Source: Plasmodiophora brassicae (lineage: Eukaryota). From it: a DNA stretch of 64,000 nucleotides. The DNA lies in contig CP145417.1 of NCBI GenBank assembly GCA_036867785.1, positions 1-64,000 on the forward strand. The letters are read 5' to 3'. Position numbers: made by a program. Below, in pieces: positions 12,001 through 24,000 of this stretch. Each line of letters begins with the position of its first letter. Position 1 is the first letter of the stretch.

Positions 12001-15000
12001 ATGAAGAACGGGCGGATCGATCACGCGGCACAACTCAGGACGAGGACGGCGAAGGCCAGGTCGACGCTATTCGCGCTGAGCCAATCGGGCTGCTTCAAGA
12101 CGAAACACCTGAACGTGAGCAAGAAACGCGTGGTGTTTATGAGCTTCGTGCGATCGCAGCTGGAGTACGGCCTCTGCATCGCCAACCACAGCAGCTCGAC
12201 GCTGAAGGAGATCGACTCGTGGGTCATGCGAACGTGCGCCGAGTTCCTCGGCGGCCACCGCAACGGGTCGATCCTGATGATGCGCTACGCCGGCATTGTC
12301 CCGATGGCGATCCGGCAGGCACAGCTACGTGGCGGGTTCCTGCTCCACCTGAAGGAGAAGGCCGACGAGTACCCGAGGACCATGAGCGGCAAGATCGCCA
12401 AGGCCATGTTCGCGAACCCGGCATCGAGGCTGTCGACGATCGTGCAGAAGTGCCCGGTCTGGTCGCGGGTGCAGGCGCTGATGCGGCAGCAGGCCCGGGT
12501 GAGGGACCTGCGCGAGTGGAAGATCAGGCACGGCACCCGATTGGAGGAGGCGGACAAGAACGAGGGCGGACCCGGGGACGCGCTGGTCCAGGCGCTGCAG
12601 GAACGGGCGTGGCGGCCGTGGGCGCGTGCGAAACTGATGCGGGTCCAGAAGCAGGAGTGGAACAGACCGCACGCGACCGCGTTCCAAGCGACGGCGGACG
12701 CGTACCGGATCGCCAACTGGCTGACGAATCGCCTACCGGGCATACCTGCTCCATGTCAGAACTGCAACGGGGCGTACGAGACGAATCGATACCATTGTAC
12801 GATTTGTGTCGGCGCCCAGCAGCGGCTGGAGCATGTGTATCGCCCGGAGGTGCATCTGAAGTGGTTGACTGATGCCGACAACGCGATCGACGCCTGCCTG
12901 CTCCAGCTGACACGGCCGTCGATCATCCAAGCGCCGGCGTATGATGGGCGACCTAGGAAGCAAGCGTCAGAGGCGGCGTATCGACTCGACGAGCGAACCA
13001 GACCGGTGGCGACGGCGATCGCGACTGTCCTCAAGGACATCGACGAGCTGTGCAGGCCGCGACAGGGTCGTGATGGCGGCGACGACAATGGCGGCGACAA
13101 TGGCGACGACAATGGCGGCGATGATGGGGACGGCGGCGGCGAAGATGGACCTGTCGAGCTCCGCATCCAGGACGGCAACGGCGACGATGATGGCAGCAAC
13201 GGCAACGGCGACGATGATGGCAGCAACGGCAACGGCGACGATCAGGGCAGCAACGGCAACGGCGGCGACCAGGGCAGCAACGGCAAGCGGTACGAGCGGC
13301 GCCCGCCGATCTGGATCCGGGTACCGTGACGATCGCTCATGCCCGGCCGGATTTTTCCCATCCGATCAGCGTCTGACGCCCGGATGGGTTTTTTCATCCG
13401 GCCGACGAGGCCATCACCAGGCCTATCGCGACATGCTGGCGACGACGACCATCGGCGCCGCCAGCATCGACACGCACCACCCGCACTGCGCAGTCCGTCA
13501 CAGGCGGCCACTGCGTAGCGCTATTTCTATCATGTGACCCTTCATCTACCTACTCAAGACGACACTGGCAATCGTATTATGCTCGGCATCGGTTGGAAAA
13601 GGGTGGTCTACGCCTAATACACACAAGACTAAAACCCTAAGCCACGAATGCCTTTGCTTAGGGGGATATCCGGAGCCTACAAGACGAATGCTGGCTCAGC
13701 GATGCCGTTATCATGGCATGCCTGTCTCTGATCGTCCAGCGTGACGAAACGCGTCGAGTCGCGATGCCTGGGCGTTACCCGACGTGCTTTGCGCTCGACT
13801 CGCAGCTGTACGCGAAGATGATGCAGGGCGGCCAGTACGCCTACGAGAATGTGAGGACGTGGGCCAGATGGTTCGCCCACGAGCCCGTGTTTGACTACGA
13901 CTTTATATTTGTCCCGATCTGCGACGCTTACCATTGGTTCCTGATGGTTGTCCAACCCAAGCTCAAGCTTGTGGAGTGGTACGACTCTCTGCAGCACACA
14001 CCACCCCGCACTGAGTTTGGTCGCAACATCATCCGGTACGTGCGGGATTTGTATCTGGACATGACTGGCCGCCCATGGGAGACGGAATGGACCTGTCGCC
14101 GTGCTGCCGGTCGGTTTCCCAAGCAGAGCAATGGGACCGACTGTGTCGTCTTCGTGATCGTGTATGCTGACTACTTGGCGAACTCGTCGCCCATGACGTT
14201 TTCCGGTACCGATATCAGCTTCTATCGTCGTCGATGGACAGTGGAGATCGCACGAAAGGACATGCTCGATTGCCCGCGTGAAGAACGCAACCTTAACCAC
14301 GGGCCTGCGGAATGCGACCGACGATCGATCGAGTCTCCAGCGTTCGATGATGTCCCCCCGATCCAGTTTGATGACTGCGCTCCGAATTCCAATAGCGCGG
14401 TCAACTCGCACACGACCGGCGGGTCGGGTACGACTTTGACCGCCGTTGGGGACGCTGTGAACGACGAACACGACCGTGATGGTTGGTATCGAGACCGGCA
14501 AATTACGCGATAGTTGACTTTCTTACTTTGAGTTAGGTGGTTCGATGAACGTTGTAGCAGGGGAATCGGCTCTGATGCCCATTGATCTGTCGCTGCCTGA
14601 GCCGACACGTGCGCCGCCGCAACACGCCGATGGACTTGGGCCGCTCCCTTCTGGTGCACCCGTCTACACTGCAGCAGCACCTCAAGAAGTCGCCACCGTT
14701 GCCGTCGATACGGGAGCTGATGATTCGCCTCATGGTTGGTTACGTGTTGGAATAATTGTTTGTATTCCATATTGTGACGCCAAACTAGGTAAGATAACGC
14801 TTGACCCGCACGACCCTAACATGAATTGCGTAACCGCATCGACGTCTTGGCCTCGTGATGTGCCCCCACTGACAGGGTGCCAACCGGAATCGTCGTCTGC
14901 AGTTGCTCTCGTGTCAATCACCGCTGTTCGAACGTCTCCTGATTCGCTTAAGATGCCGGTCCGTCCGCCTCCATCAGAGTCGAGAACATCATCTTCCTCA

Positions 15001-21000: not shown

Positions 21001-24000
21001 ATGCCTCGTCGCGCCCGCCTTGTCAGCAGCCCGTCGTGATGCTGCAGGGTTGCCACCAGCGAGTCAAACTGTCAGCGGTTCTAGTCGGGGAGCAGTCAAC
21101 AACGATAACAAGGAGATGCACCTCCAAGAGGCCTTGCAAACCTGGTCACGATGTCGAGCACCGGTCAACGACCTTCCGGCACATGGCCAGCATGCCCAGG
21201 CCCGGATCACTGTTGATTGTTCGACAGGATCCAATGGAGATCGTCCAGGAATCCGGCCCTGATGGAGCGCAGATCAGCATGGCGCGTCGTAGGACCACTG
21301 TGGTAGGTGCAGGACATCAAACGATGATGATGGGAGGATCTCTTGGATATCTGATATCTCCTCTGTGCAGGACGTGGTGCCAGAATTGGGATTACAGGTC
21401 GGCAGTGCTTTCTTCGACCTCGTTGGCCTGGTCGATTATCAGGGTGGTGACACCCAGTTGGCTGGGCACGATCAAGGGCATTACATATCGTGGGTTAAGC
21501 AACCCGGCGGTGCCTGGGCCTTCTGCGACACCAGTCGCCTAGTGCGGTATGGAGAGTCCCAAGTGGCTCGCCTGCTCGACAAGCGCGTCTACAGGCTGCT
21601 CTTCTACCGATGCATGGGTATCCGTTTATAAATTCGCCTTTTTCACTTTACGCACGGGACGGGTCTGTTTGACATGCAGCATCGCGAGCGTCGATGCTCG
21701 ATTGCCAATGTCTAAGGGTTGGCATTGCCTGGCGAAACCAGGCATGGCAAAGTCGTGGAAGGATCTGCCATGGTCGACACGCAGGGACGGGCGTAACGTC
21801 GACGAACTCGCCGGGGACGGACGGCGTCCCGCCGTGCACCGATTGCACGGAACGCTGCCGGTCGGCACCAGCTGACGCCAGGAAGCCATGCATGGCCGGT
21901 GTACACGCGGGACAACTGGTTTTGCTTGTATTGAACGGTCCTGGTTGCCGCGATACGCCGGCCGGGATGGTGACGATCGTCATCAGAAAGCAGGCGTTCG
22001 CGTGGCGACCTGTAGAAATGGACGCTGGGCATCGCTGAACTGCTGGGCAACCAGCAGTGTAGGCAGGCGCAGCTGGGATTGCAGACGGTGGCGCTGGCGG
22101 CGCCCTTGCTCGCTGTGCCCAACATCGAATGATGGGTCTATGACAGGGACGCAAACGACCAACCGCAGCGATCGACAGGGGGTAGGCGTCGTCGCCTCAG
22201 GCGTGGGGCCAGGTGGCCGCAACCCTGACGATGCGCTACAGCTACGGTTGCCGTCTTCTGTCCATCACATGTCAGAGGCCATGGTCGCTTGTCAGACGCG
22301 AAACGACCGACCTGTTCTGGATATAATTCATCCAGGGATACTGAGCGCGTGGACACACCAGCAGCAGGTTGCATTGCCTTCCCCGGGGATGCGCTTTACA
22401 CGTGCCAATATAGTCGGCGGCGACGTCGGCGTGGACCTGTCGTCGGGGATACGCGACATGCGATAGCCCCAGGTGTGGAGCAGGTGGTCGGACCGCCTGG
22501 CACCGCCCGGCATCGACGGCTGCCGTCTCCTGTCCAGCACATGTCTCAGCCCATGGTTGCTTGTCATACGCGATACTACTTACCTGTTCTGAATACAATT
22601 CATCATCCAGAGGTACGGAGCCGCAGCAGGTTGCGTTGCCTTCGTTGGGGACGCCATGGCCCGTGACGATATGGTCGGCGGAGACGGCGGCGGGGACGCA
22701 AGCAGGTCAGGCAGGCACGACATGTCGTCGGCGACCCGCGATGTGCGACGGCGAAGAACACCCGTTGAACCGTGTACGGCGATGTCGTGGACGACGTTGA
22801 CGACAGGCAGCGTAGCCGGGTCGTCGGCGACGACGACGACGCAACTACGGAGTGGTGCGCCCTGCTGGACTTTCGCCGAGGCCAGCCTTCATTGGAAATC
22901 CATATACCGACATGGGACTAGATCAGTAGTTACGAACTCGACCAGGACCATGCCCTCGTTTAATGTCGAGTACCTTCTCTCCGAAGAACCGCGAAGAGAA
23001 ATTCGGCACTCTCCACCCTTTGCGGTCAGCGGGTCCCACACATCCGACTGTATTGTTCCTCGGTTACGTTCCCTTTACGTTTGTCGGGAACTCGTAAACG
23101 TTTGACCCCTGCATCTTGCTGAAATTGTTAAAATGTGTTAACGCTCCCGGTTACGACGAGGAGCAATTCGGCACTCTCTCCTCGTCGCGGACAGCGGGCC
23201 ACACACCTCCGAGTGTATTGTTCCTCGGTTACCTTCCCTTTAGGTTTGTCTTATTGTCGTAAACTTGTAAAGGGATGGCCTCTGCACCGTACTGAAATTC
23301 TTAAAGTGTGTTAACGCTCCCGGTTACGACGAAGGGCAATTCGGCACTGTCTCCCCGTTGCGGATAGCGGGTCTGAGACATCCGATCAAAAGTATTGTTC
23401 ATTGGCTACGTTCCCCTTCGGATGGTCTTATTGTCATCAGCTCGTAAATGGATGGCACCTGCACCTTACTGAAATACTGAAAATGTATTAACGCCCGCTT
23501 ACGACGGCACCCTCCGCCCGTTGCGGGCAGCGGGTCTCACACATGCGAATGTACTGTTCCTTGGTTACGCTCTTCACGTGTGGGTGTACGCGCATGTCAA
23601 CATGTTCAGCGTGTATTGAACGGCCCCGATTATCGGGATATAGCGTCGAGGATGCTGCACGATCGTTGTCGAAAGTCAGGTGTCCGCGAGGCTTCCGGCA
23701 GCAACGGGCGCTGGGCACCGCTACCCTGCTGGGCAACCAGCAGAGTTGGCAGAGGCAGCCGACCAGGCAGATGGGGGGCCGGCGACGCATTTGCACCAGT
23801 GCCCGTCATCGCAGGATGGTTCAGGGTAGACGACGAATTGCAGCCAGCGACTAGGGAGGGGCAGGCGACCGCCTCAGGTGTGGACCAGAATGACGATTTG
23901 GCAGAACCACGCCTGCTTGAAGGCTCCCATGATGGACAAGCGACGTCCCGCGACAGCTGGCGTGTCCTGTCCATCACATGTCAGAGGCCAAGGTCGCATC

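What the first reader, a model, noticed from the sequence alone, without database searches (positions are those of the whole stretch)
13662..21631. Hidden giant gene fusing a Ulp1/SENP protease and a USP deubiquitinase around a long unknown core
The ORF track shows separate ORFs, but short GT..AG introns join them in frame. The introns are 14482-14536 (phase 1), 15958-16018 (=818-867 in A), 20072-20136 (=4879-4936 in A) and 21303-21370 (=6306-6371 in A). Catalytic residues of both protease families appear to be present. I do not recognise a cellular protein with a C48 domain at one end and a C19 domain at the other. Ulp1-like domains are known cargo of large transposons (Mutator-like, Zisupton), so this could be a selfish-element anti-silencing protein. 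The small exons at ~20230-20585 were not fully phase-checked.
Basis: partly seen in the sequence, partly recalled or inferred. Interest (0 to 1): 0.8.

Follow-up and report, generated by a model that had tools for sequence, protein, structure and literature searches.

The report
Spliced SENP–core–USP gene, clubroot pathogen
In the clubroot pathogen Plasmodiophora brassicae, a SUMO-protease-like exon is spliced in frame onto a large multi-copy gene that ends in a divergent deubiquitinase domain, but in this assembly a stop codon cuts the frame just before that last domain.

Summary
The separate ORFs at 13662-21631 belong to one spliced transcription unit. Contigs of four public runs, whose RNA label is only a guess, lack exactly the proposed GT..AG segments. 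They also show four more introns. The N-terminal exon is a solid SENP/Ulp1 C48 domain with conserved catalytic motifs. The C-terminus is a divergent USP domain. Pfam scores lie around threshold, its motif order is recalled as USP-like, and language-model features support it.

Three corrections:
- The organism is Plasmodiophora brassicae. Core+USP models of 2036-2087 aa already exist, and the C48 ORF is annotated as a separate 249-aa protein.
- In this window the joined frame ends at TAG 20533-20535, just before the USP exons. Copy A, three B-type database models and three runs read a sense codon there.
- The 5' end and start codon are unresolved. A high-copy LINE ends about 24 nt upstream.

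The ~1100-aa core has one distant relative and no known domain or confident fold. The family is multi-copy and rearranging. No transposase or terminal repeats were found, so the selfish-element idea stays unproven.

The parts
13662..14481 (+). Exon carrying a SENP/Ulp1-type C48 protease domain. It starts right after an AG acceptor and has no start codon of its own.
   Evidence: Pfam PF02902 E 5.4e-22, 79.1 bits. SENP2 (1tgz) E 2.4e-20, aligned from the first residue, with the HW, DS and Q..NG.DC motifs conserved. GC3 0.70.
14482..14536 (+). Intron (55 nt, GT..AG, phase 1). It removes the TAG at 14511-14513 and joins the C48 exon to the next ORF.
   Evidence: Skipped in contigs of X1, X5 and X6. 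Frames checked.
14537..15957 (+). Exon made of a P/S/A/V-rich linker (to about 15150) and then a conserved N-terminal region shared with copy A. It holds the annotated start of B-type models (MDLDNL, 15151). An optional in-frame intron lies at 14735-14788.
   Evidence: Open for 473 codons. Linker GC3 is 0.46, the conserved part 0.67. P0006 residues 1-269 match 15151-15957 at 100%. The joint at 14735-14788 is seen in X5 only.
15958..16018 (+). Intron (61 nt, GT..AG).
   Evidence: Skipped in contigs of X1 and X2. Matches model P0006.
16019..20071 (+). Core exon of 1351 codons: an acidic stretch, then about 1100 aa of conserved core with no known domain.
   Evidence: No Pfam hit at E<=5. 52% aa identity to copy A, dN/dS 0.28. 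Distant relative P0010 at E 2.5e-34. AF2 pLDDT 37.9.
20072..20136 (+). Intron (65 nt, GT..AG).
   Evidence: Skipped in all 4 runs.
20137..20535 (+). Three small phase-0 exons (20137-20241, 20302-20379, 20446-20535) with introns 20242-20301 and 20380-20445. They encode an acidic Ser/Asp patch and basic NLS-like clusters. The last exon ends in an in-frame TAG at 20533-20535.
   Evidence: Joints in X1, X5 and X6. Translations. Copy A and models P0002/P0005/P0006 have Gln at the homologous codon.
20536..20585 (+). Intron (50 nt, GT..AG). It was laid as 20533-20582 because the contigs carry a sense codon where the window has TAG.
   Evidence: The reinterpretation of the joint is my inference.
20586..21302 (+). 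USP exon a: atypical Cys box (GISN..C..QIC), a QHDADDF motif and two Cys pairs.
   Evidence: Alignment A1. 92% identical to P0006. dN/dS against copy A is 0.26. The contigs of X1 and X6 differ here at 19 of 455 and 55 of 721 letters.
21303..21370 (+). Intron (68 nt, GT..AG).
   Evidence: Models P0002/P0006. The X6 joint has divergent letters.
21371..21631 (+). USP exon b: His box (GHYISWVK...FCDTS) and the YRLLFYR tail, then the stop codon.
   Evidence: Pfam UCH E 0.002. PDB USP14/Ubp8/USP36 matches. dN/dS against copy A is 0.13.
1..6632 (+). Paralog copy A (core+USP). Its 5' end is cut by the window edge and a short tandem repeat at 1-343. It corresponds to models P0001/P0004.
10865..13637 (+). 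5'-truncated LINE-like reverse-transcriptase repeat ending about 24 nt upstream of the C48 exon. It is not part of the gene.
   Evidence: RVT_1 E 1.2e-20. Contig depth is hundreds to 1e5, falling to 0-164 from 13692. All 4 runs have loose ends at 10865.
13579..13602 (+). Candidate first exon (ATG plus 7 codons) with a candidate intron at 13603-13661 (59 nt, GT..AG, phase 0). Untested, and it lies inside the LINE tail.
   Evidence: Sequence reading only. No joint was seen. One X1 contig reads unspliced across 13658.
21765..22206 (+). Dispersed repeat R1 downstream of the gene. It also lies downstream of copy A. The internally deleted transcribed form joins 15483 to 21955 inside it.

Best explanation
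This is one spliced gene of a Plasmodiophora brassicae-expanded family. The shared body of the family is a conserved N-terminal region, a ~1100-aa core of unknown fold, an acidic/basic (NLS-like) hinge and a divergent C-terminal USP (C19) domain.

In copy B, a SENP-type C48 exon is additionally spliced in frame onto the 5' end through a poorly adapted P/S-rich linker. The potential product is about 2520 codons with a SUMO-type protease at one end and a ubiquitin-type protease at the other.

Inferred mechanism: a nuclear scaffold protein that removes ubiquitin from substrates chosen by the core. The B form would remove SUMO as well, for example from mixed SUMO-ubiquitin chains.

In this assembly the frame stops at TAG 20533-20535. 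The window's copy can therefore give at most C48+core, unless the stop is an assembly error.

Shown: the splicing, the frame continuity from 13662 to 20532, the domain assignments, purifying selection, and several loci.

Inferred: translation as one protein, nuclear location, and the activities and substrates.
For: Splicing and transcript cover:
- GT..AG joints were seen at all four proposed introns and four further ones.
- Overlapping contigs tile 13683-15483 (X5, X6), 14817-16823 and 16801-20071 (X2), and on to 21303 (X6).

Frame: it is open from 13662 to 20532 after splicing.

C48 domain: Pfam 79.1 bits. SENP2 E 2.4e-20, with the motifs around the catalytic His, Asp, Gln and Cys conserved.

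USP domain:
- UCH is the only Pfam family below E 0.001 for P0004 (24.5 bits, cutoff 23.9) and P0006 (21.9 bits).
- 13 of 13 PDB sequences at E<=1 are USPs.
- ESM features score 0.94 to UCH clusters, and 10 of the 10 best share the family.

Selection: copy A against copy B gives dN/dS 0.28 for the core and 0.26 and 0.13 for the USP exons, with dS above 1.

Family: models of 2036-2087 aa exist, and members sit on contigs of 2.10 Mb, 923 kb, 747 kb and 625 kb. More diverged fragments are also present.

Basic clusters are conserved in both paralogs.
Against: - An in-frame TAG lies before the USP exons in this window.
- No single contig spans from the C48 exon past 15483. There the contigs of X1, X5 and X6 branch into a form joined to 21955 that lacks core and USP. 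C48-bearing transcripts may therefore come largely from a deleted copy.
- Linker GC3 is 0.46, unlike real coding exons here.
- No start codon was found for the C48 exon, and a LINE abuts it.
- The annotated copy A models have no C48.
- No annotated protein of 479-2000 aa contains the C48 exon. Longer ones were not searchable.
- The run labels are only guessed to be RNA.
- The USP Cys box is atypical and not matched by Pfam.
- Both AF2 models were unusable.
Confidence: 0.55

Rival explanations
1. The unit is the protein-coding body of a selfish or mobile element. The conserved core would be a new kind of mobilisation enzyme. The SUMO and ubiquitin proteases would be cargo that counters host silencing.
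For: - Near-identical B-type copies and A-type pieces lie on at least four differently sized contigs. I infer from the accession series that these belong to one annotated assembly.
- Further decayed fragments at 30-60% identity are present in P. brassicae.
- An internally deleted, transcribed form keeps the 5' part and the 3' flank, joining 15483 to 21955.
- Other branch points at 16794 and 20223 lead to sequence not in the window.
- Both copies lie in a repeat-rich block with satellites and a LINE, and both are followed by repeat R1.
- In the e3 draft the family sits on small contigs of 5-34 kb.
Against: - No Pfam transposase, integrase, helicase or nuclease domain at E<=5 in the core or in P0010.
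- No Walker A or CxxC motif in B, A or P0010; isolated HxxxH matches occur in A and P0010, at different positions.
- No inverted or direct terminal repeats around copy B.
- Only a handful of copies.
- Copies A and B are old (dS above 1) and sit in tandem, as for ordinary paralogs.
- The high-copy repeat next door is a separate LINE.
Confidence: 0.2
2. There are two genes, not one protein. A small C48 gene, as currently annotated, lies upstream of a core+USP gene that starts at the annotated Met (15151). The joined contigs would reflect read-through or chimeric transcripts, or the deleted copy. The open linker frame would not be translated as part of a giant protein.
For: - The existing models split it this way: P0009 of 249 aa, and P0006 starting at MDLDNL.
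- The linker lacks codon bias.
- The copy A models have no C48.
- The C48-bearing contigs of X5 and X6 branch at 15483 into the deleted form.
Against: - Splicing of 14482-14536 removes the C48 ORF's own stop. The frame then has no stop before 20533, so a spliced stand-alone C48 message would have no nearby stop.
- A 205-codon linker open by chance in the one frame that links both parts is unlikely. My estimate is about 3e-4 from base composition.
- The optional intron 14735-14788 is a multiple of three.
- Contigs cover 14297-15483 and 14817-16823 without a gap.
Confidence: 0.18
3. It is a host-directed effector: a pathogen deSUMOylase/deubiquitinase delivered into the plant cell to edit host SUMO or ubiquitin marks.
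For: - The organism is an intracellular plant pathogen.
- The USP region differs strongly between samples: 55 of 721 letters in X6 against 1-3 letters per 2000-3300 in the core.
- Ubl-protease effectors are known in bacteria (recalled knowledge).
Against: - No N-terminus, and so no signal peptide, could be defined.
- The size is about 2500 aa.
- My rough estimate of amino-acid against nucleotide differences between the USP haplotypes points to purifying rather than diversifying selection.
- No paper in the searched library links the family to virulence.
Confidence: 0.05

Closest known systems
SENP1/SENP2/Ulp1 SUMO proteases (peptidase C48, clan CE)
   Same: The first exon aligns over 201 residues to the SENP2 catalytic domain (E 2.4e-20). 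The WLxD, HW, DS and Q..NG.DC motifs are conserved. Pfam PF02902 scores far above its cutoff.
   Different: - No start codon, and none of the roughly 36 residues that precede this point in the crystallised SENP2 chain (the alignment starts at chain residue 37).
- It is followed by about 2200 further codons, including a second protease domain.
- Substrate (SUMO, NEDD8 or ubiquitin) was not tested.
USP deubiquitinases (peptidase C19), with USP14, Ubp8 and USP36 as the nearest solved chains
   Same: His box, Asp and C-terminal tail align. The order Cys box, QxDA.EF-like motif, two Cys pairs, His box is as I recall it for USPs. ESM features score 0.94 to UCH clusters.
   Different: - Pfam score is around the cutoff, and only profile positions 77-252 are matched.
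- About six extra residues lie between the conserved Asn and the Cys that HMMER aligns to the catalytic Cys of USP14 (sub-threshold alignment, and the identity of the catalytic residue is recalled).
- In this window the domain lies behind a stop codon.
Annotated P. brassicae 'USP domain-containing protein' / 'Cysteine proteinase' models (P0004 = PBRA_009661, P0001, P0006)
   Same: Same family. P0006 matches the window's 15151-20071 at 99.9-100%. P0001 and P0004 are copy A.
   Different: None of these models includes the C48 exon. The window's copy differs from P0006 by 8% (exon a) and 17% (exon b) of residues in the USP exons, and carries the TAG.
Ulp1-like domains carried by DNA transposons (Mutator-like KI-MULEs, CACTA, Zisupton/KDZ); recalled, and one review seen only in a search listing (PMC13317346)
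   Same: A C48 domain inside a multi-copy, rearranging, repeat-associated unit.
   Different: No transposase domain, terminal inverted repeats or target-site duplications were found. The C48 here is closest to SENP1/2 and is paired with a USP domain.

Membership tests
Peptidase C48 (Ulp1/SENP) | Match to the family profile above the curated threshold | tested here: met
   PF02902 79.1 bits against cutoff 20.7; residues 11-197 match profile positions 2-210 of 217.
Peptidase C48 (Ulp1/SENP) | Catalytic His, Asp and Cys plus the oxyanion Gln | tested here: met
   In the alignment to SENP2 (1tgz), YHW, YDS and KQSNGTDC stand opposite vHW, LDS and QQLNGSDC. Which residues are catalytic is recalled knowledge.
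Peptidase C48 (Ulp1/SENP) | Complete, translatable catalytic domain (start codon, N-terminal segment) | tested here: inconclusive
   The exon begins after an AG, and the in-frame codon before it is TAG. The first in-frame Met would delete the WLSD motif. The candidate exon 13579-13602 is untested.
Peptidase C48 (Ulp1/SENP) | SUMO (or other Ubl) isopeptidase activity | not testable with these tools
   Needs an enzyme assay.
Peptidase C19 (USP) | Match to the family profile above the curated threshold | tested here: inconclusive
   PF00443 scores 24.5 for P0004 (copy A), 21.9 for P0006 (B type) and 18.2 for the window's last ORF, against cutoff 23.9.
Peptidase C19 (USP) | Cys box with catalytic Cys | tested here: inconclusive
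   Pfam does not cover it (profile positions 77-252 only). HMMER places ICFAIAPVHILRRLPG opposite TCYMNATVQCIRSVPE of USP14 at a sub-threshold score of -3.1 bits. The motif is conserved in A and B.
Peptidase C19 (USP) | His box and Asp | tested here: met
   GHYISWVK...W.FCDTS aligns to GHYVSWVK...W.KFDD of USP14. 13 of 13 PDB sequences at E<=1 are USPs, though the best E is only 0.054.
Peptidase C19 (USP) | USP fold | tested here: inconclusive
   AF2 mean pLDDT was 40.3 with 4 sequences, so no fold search was run. ESM features score 0.94 to UCH clusters.
Peptidase C19 (USP) | Domain in frame with the rest of the gene in this window | tested here: not met
   TAG at 20533-20535 ends the joined frame.
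Transposon carrying a Ulp1 domain (MULE, CACTA, Zisupton/KDZ) | Recognisable transposase domain | tested here: not met
   No Pfam family at E<=5 in the B core, the A core or P0010. No profile hit in PDB (best E 2.5). ESM atlas gave no usable hit.
Transposon carrying a Ulp1 domain (MULE, CACTA, Zisupton/KDZ) | Terminal inverted repeats or target-site duplications | tested here: not met
   No inverted repeats of 150 nt or more in the window. Nothing was found between the upstream and downstream flanks with short-word blastn. The 5' flank is obscured by a LINE.
Transposon carrying a Ulp1 domain (MULE, CACTA, Zisupton/KDZ) | Multiple dispersed, near-identical copies and deleted derivatives | tested here: inconclusive
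   Members lie on contigs of 4 sizes, with fragments as well. One deleted transcribed form was seen. Copy number, insertion sites and polymorphism could not be examined because no genome is held.

The most novel reading that the evidence does not exclude
A so far undescribed kind of selfish genetic unit in Rhizaria. Its ~1100-aa conserved core, which also occurs in an unidentified eukaryote from a metagenome, would be a new mobilisation or propagation enzyme. The unit would carry its own SUMO-type and ubiquitin-type proteases to undo SUMO/ubiquitin-dependent silencing of itself. The short of this: one polypeptide combining C48 and C19 deconjugases as a single editing machine for mixed SUMO-ubiquitin marks.
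Probability: 0.12. Interest if true: 0.85.

Novelty: new variant of a known kind. Interest (0 to 1): 0.45.

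Why it matters
- Annotation: it corrects the P. brassicae annotation at this locus. The 249-aa C48 'gene' is an exon spliced onto a giant gene, and at least eight introns are now placed.
- Enzymology: a C48 and a C19 domain in one reading frame is an architecture for which my paper searches found no report. I also recall none. If both domains are active, it would be a natural tool for studying the editing of mixed SUMO-ubiquitin chains.
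- Genome biology: the family is multi-copy, rearranging and sits in satellite-rich, possibly centromeric DNA of an important crop pathogen. Its USP end is far more variable between samples than its core. That makes it a marker for genome dynamics, whatever its function.

Tried and rejected
- Whole genome: none is held for this window, so copy number, flanks and other C48-bearing copies could not be examined.
- Sequencing runs: no RNA holder is listed, and all run kinds are guesses. I treat the laid runs as RNA only because their contigs lack GT..AG segments. A processed DNA copy is the formal alternative.
- Uncovered parts and depth differences are not used as evidence.
- AF2 of the core (12 sequences, pLDDT 37.9) and of the USP domain (4 sequences, pLDDT 40.3) was too poor, so no fold search was run.
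- ESM atlas on the core gave no usable hit.
- A PDB profile search with the core gave one hit at E 2.5 (Ufd1), which I dismiss as chance.
- Pfam on the core, linker, P0010, P0017 and P0018 gave nothing.
- Two metagenome scans for the contig of P0010 found no relative. One search failed because the alignment was too diverse. The neighbours of the distant relative are therefore unknown.
- A search for proteins of 479-2000 aa containing the C48 exon found none of 909 candidates. A model above 2000 aa would not have been seen.
- Loose-end sequences at 20223, 16794 and 10864 are not in the window.
- No TIRs were found.
- Notes of this scan returned nothing.
- Rejected: the C48 exon as part of the upstream LINE, because depth drops from hundreds or thousands to 0-164 at about 13692.
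- Rejected: a minus-strand gene under the linker, because no minus ORF there shows a coding GC3 pattern.
- Rejected: an alternative splice that bypasses the TAG, because no GT/AG pair keeps the frame (my reading).
- Supplements of the T2T paper (repeat tables) were not read.

Full report
**What is there**

The + strand between 13662 and 21631 holds five long ORFs.
- The first is a clear Ulp1/SENP C48 domain: PF02902, E 5.4e-22, 79.1 bits against a cutoff of 20.7.
- The last gives a weak UCH/USP hit: E 0.002, 18.2 bits, cutoff 23.9.
- The three between have no Pfam family.
- A diverged paralog, copy A, lies at window 1-6632, with 65-68% nucleotide identity over 2.3 and 1.1 kb.

A protein search places the locus in Plasmodiophora brassicae. 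P0001 (2052 aa, 'Cysteine proteinase') is copy A. P0002 (872 aa, 'USP domain-containing protein') is a B-type C-terminal model.

**Splicing**

Four public runs from four studies were laid on 10700-21900. They are Logan contigs whose RNA label is only a guess. Their contigs skip GT..AG segments as follows:

| Intron | Length | Runs |
|---|---|---|
| 14482-14536 | 55 nt | X1, X5, X6 |
| 15958-16018 | 61 nt | X1, X2 |
| 20072-20136 | 65 nt | all four |
| 20242-20301 | 60 nt | X1, X5, X6 |
| 20380-20445 | 66 nt | X1, X5, X6 |
| 20536-20585 | 50 nt | X1, X5, X6 |
| 21303-21370 | 68 nt | X6, on a divergent haplotype |
| 14735-14788 | 54 nt, optional, in frame | removed in X5, retained in X6 |

Because precisely these segments are missing, I take the contigs to be cDNA. 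A processed DNA copy is the formal alternative.

Joining the exons in a script gives an open frame from 13662 to 20532. Every intron from 15958 onward is phase 0.

**The break**

Exon 20446-20535 translates to VHERPAVDRSSRTERIAHSDPAQGSEPPA followed by a stop. The TAG at 20533-20535 lies directly before the donor at 20536.
- The homologous codon of copy A is a Gln codon.
- Models P0002, P0005 and P0006 have Gln there.
- The contigs of X1, X5 and X6 also read a sense codon. That is why the aligner placed that joint three bases off, as 'TA..TT' (my reading).

I found no alternative GT/AG pair that keeps the frame. So in this assembly the C48+core frame of about 2196 codons ends before the USP exons.

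The USP exons of the window also differ strongly from the other samples. X1 differs at 19 of 455 letters and X6 at 55 of 721, whereas the listed core contigs of 1236-3315 letters differ at only 1-3 letters each. Against P0006 the amino-acid identity is 92% in exon a and 83% in exon b. X5 is a mosaic of both letter sets. A rough count gives about 19 amino-acid changes for 55 nucleotide changes, which points to old, selected haplotypes or gene conversion rather than decay. This is an inference.

**Domains**

C48:
- The C48 exon aligns to SENP2 (1tgz) from its very first residue, at E 2.4e-20.
- 18 PDB sequences match at E<=0.01, all SENP/Ulp family.
- The motifs around the catalytic His, Asp, Gln and Cys and the Trp of WLxD are kept. 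Which residues are catalytic is recalled knowledge.

USP:
- UCH is the only Pfam family under E 0.001 for P0004 (24.5 bits, just above the 23.9 cutoff) and P0006 (21.9 bits). Both cover profile positions 77-252 only.
- A profile of the family's USP regions hits 13 PDB sequences at E<=1, all USPs, through the His box (best E 0.054).
- ESM features of copy A's USP ORF score 0.94 to UCH clusters, and ten of the ten best share the family.
- The Cys box is atypical, with extra residues before the Cys that HMMER aligns, below threshold, to the catalytic Cys of USP14.
- The AF2 model was unusable (pLDDT 40.3).

I accept 'divergent USP' but not more.

**Core**

An exhaustive HMMER search with 1164 core residues found 10 proteins at E<=0.001.
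- One is a real distant relative: P0010, 990 aa, 24% identity over query residues 7-855, E 2.5e-34. It comes from a JGI metagenome and is a 'hypothetical protein'.
- Nine are short pieces. Three of these are further P. brassicae models at 30-60% identity.

There is no Pfam hit, no PDB profile hit, no ESM hit and no Walker A or CxxC motif. AF2 gave pLDDT 37.9. The contig of P0010 could not be fetched.

Copy A against copy B gives dN/dS of 0.28 for the core and 0.26 and 0.13 for the USP exons, with dS above 1. Both were long kept as coding genes.

**Is the C48 join a real protein fusion?**

For:
- Splicing at 14482-14536 removes the C48 ORF's own stop. The frame then has no stop for about 2000 codons.
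- Contigs cover 14297-15483 (X6) and 14817-16823 (X2) without a gap.
- The optional intron is a multiple of three.

Against:
- The 204-codon linker (14539-15150) has GC3 of 0.46, whereas the other exons of 86 or more codons have 0.63-0.76 (the 35-codon exon 20137-20241 has 0.89), and neighbouring genes have 0.70-0.88.
- The copy A models have no C48.
- The window's own annotation calls the C48 ORF a separate, unspliced 249-aa protein.
- At 15483 the contigs of X1, X5 and X6 branch into sequence that matches 21955-21984 with one mismatch. That is an internally deleted form lacking core and USP, with no GT/AG at the junction. It would encode C48 plus linker plus a short tail.
- No single contig links the C48 exon to the core.

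**5' end**

The C48 exon has no start codon. The first in-frame Met would remove the WLSD motif. A 5'-truncated LINE-like RT repeat (10865 to about 13637) ends about 24 nt upstream. It has RVT_1 at E 1.2e-20 and contig depth of hundreds to 1e5, and all four runs have loose ends at 10865. A candidate 8-codon first exon (13579-13602) with a 59-nt GT..AG intron fits the frame. However, it lies in the LINE tail and no joint was seen. One low-depth X1 contig reads unspliced across 13658.

**Family and context**

Cluster look-ups list the following:
- A-type models of 2052 and 2087 aa and a 302-aa piece.
- B-type models of 2036, 872, 822, 418 and 134 aa.
- These lie on contigs of 2.10 Mb, 923 kb, 747 kb and 625 kb, and on small e3-draft contigs of 5-34 kb.

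From the accession series I infer that four of them come from one annotated assembly, which would mean four chromosomes.

The first 37 kb of the window is repeat-rich: 126-bp satellites, a 169-bp array, LINE pieces and repeat R1, which follows both copies. Ordinary genes start at about 39.7 kb.

In passages found by term search, the T2T paper (PMC11191646) states that 11.88% of the genome is repeats. It reads long non-coding stretches as putative centromeres.

**Literature**

Searches gave the following:
- 'Plasmodiophora brassicae' with Ulp1: 2 papers, neither about the pathogen's own genes judging by titles and abstracts.
- 'Plasmodiophora brassicae' with deubiquitinase: 6 papers, none about this family.
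- The four PBRA locus tags: 0 papers.
- Ulp1/transposase/USP terms: 10 papers, none on a C48+C19 fusion (search listings only).
- The 2026 pangenome preprint has no occurrence of Ulp1, SUMO, ubiquitin or C48 in its main text.

**Verdict**

The gene is not open end to end in this window, and its 5' end is unknown.

The most likely reading is a lineage-expanded nuclear deconjugase family (core plus USP). Its B copy has gained a SENP-type exon, and the dual SUMO/ubiquitin activity is inferred. The selfish-element reading remains possible, because the family has several loci, fragments and a deleted derivative. It lacks every structural hallmark I could test.

Noticed in passing
window 10865-13637 (+): A high-copy, 5'-truncated LINE-like RT element. 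Contigs of X5 (one joint also in X2) show three CT..AC joints inside it (12504-12567, 12742-12788, 12950-13000). These look like introns of a spliced antisense transcript.
   Followed up: partly
window 19540-19605: A 66-nt CT..AC (minus-strand type) joint inside the core exon, seen in run X6 only. It may be an antisense spliced transcript over the gene.
   Followed up: no
window 25630-28980 and 33830-35560: Two arrays of a 126-bp satellite (about 30 copies, 60-92% identity). Together with the gene-poor 7-37 kb block they may mark a centromeric or similar region.
   Followed up: no
window 7800-10200: A 169-bp tandem array whose units keep long open frames (up to 337 aa). It lies between copy A and the LINE.
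   Followed up: no
window 53321-58657 (-): A Ty3/gypsy retrotransposon with a 1651-aa ORF (RT, RNase H, integrase, chromodomain). It is flanked by 198-bp repeats that are 100% identical, so the insertion is very young.
   Followed up: partly
window 6862-7438, 21765-22206, 23580-23883 (+), 36655-37249 (-): Dispersed repeat R1 (about 70% identity between copies). It follows the stop codons of both copy A and copy B, and it holds the 21955 end of the deleted transcribed form.
   Followed up: partly
window 15483, 16794, 20223: Contig branch points in two or three runs. The one at 15483 leads to 21955. The other two lead to sequence absent from the window, which suggests further rearranged copies elsewhere.
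   Followed up: partly
window 1-343: A short tandem repeat stands where the 5' exon of copy A (as in models P0001/P0004) would be expected. Copy A may be 5'-truncated in this assembly.
   Followed up: no
window 46398-49167 (-): Three consecutive ORFs with GlcNAc-transferase (PF11397) hits. This is probably one spliced gene or a tandem pair.
   Followed up: no
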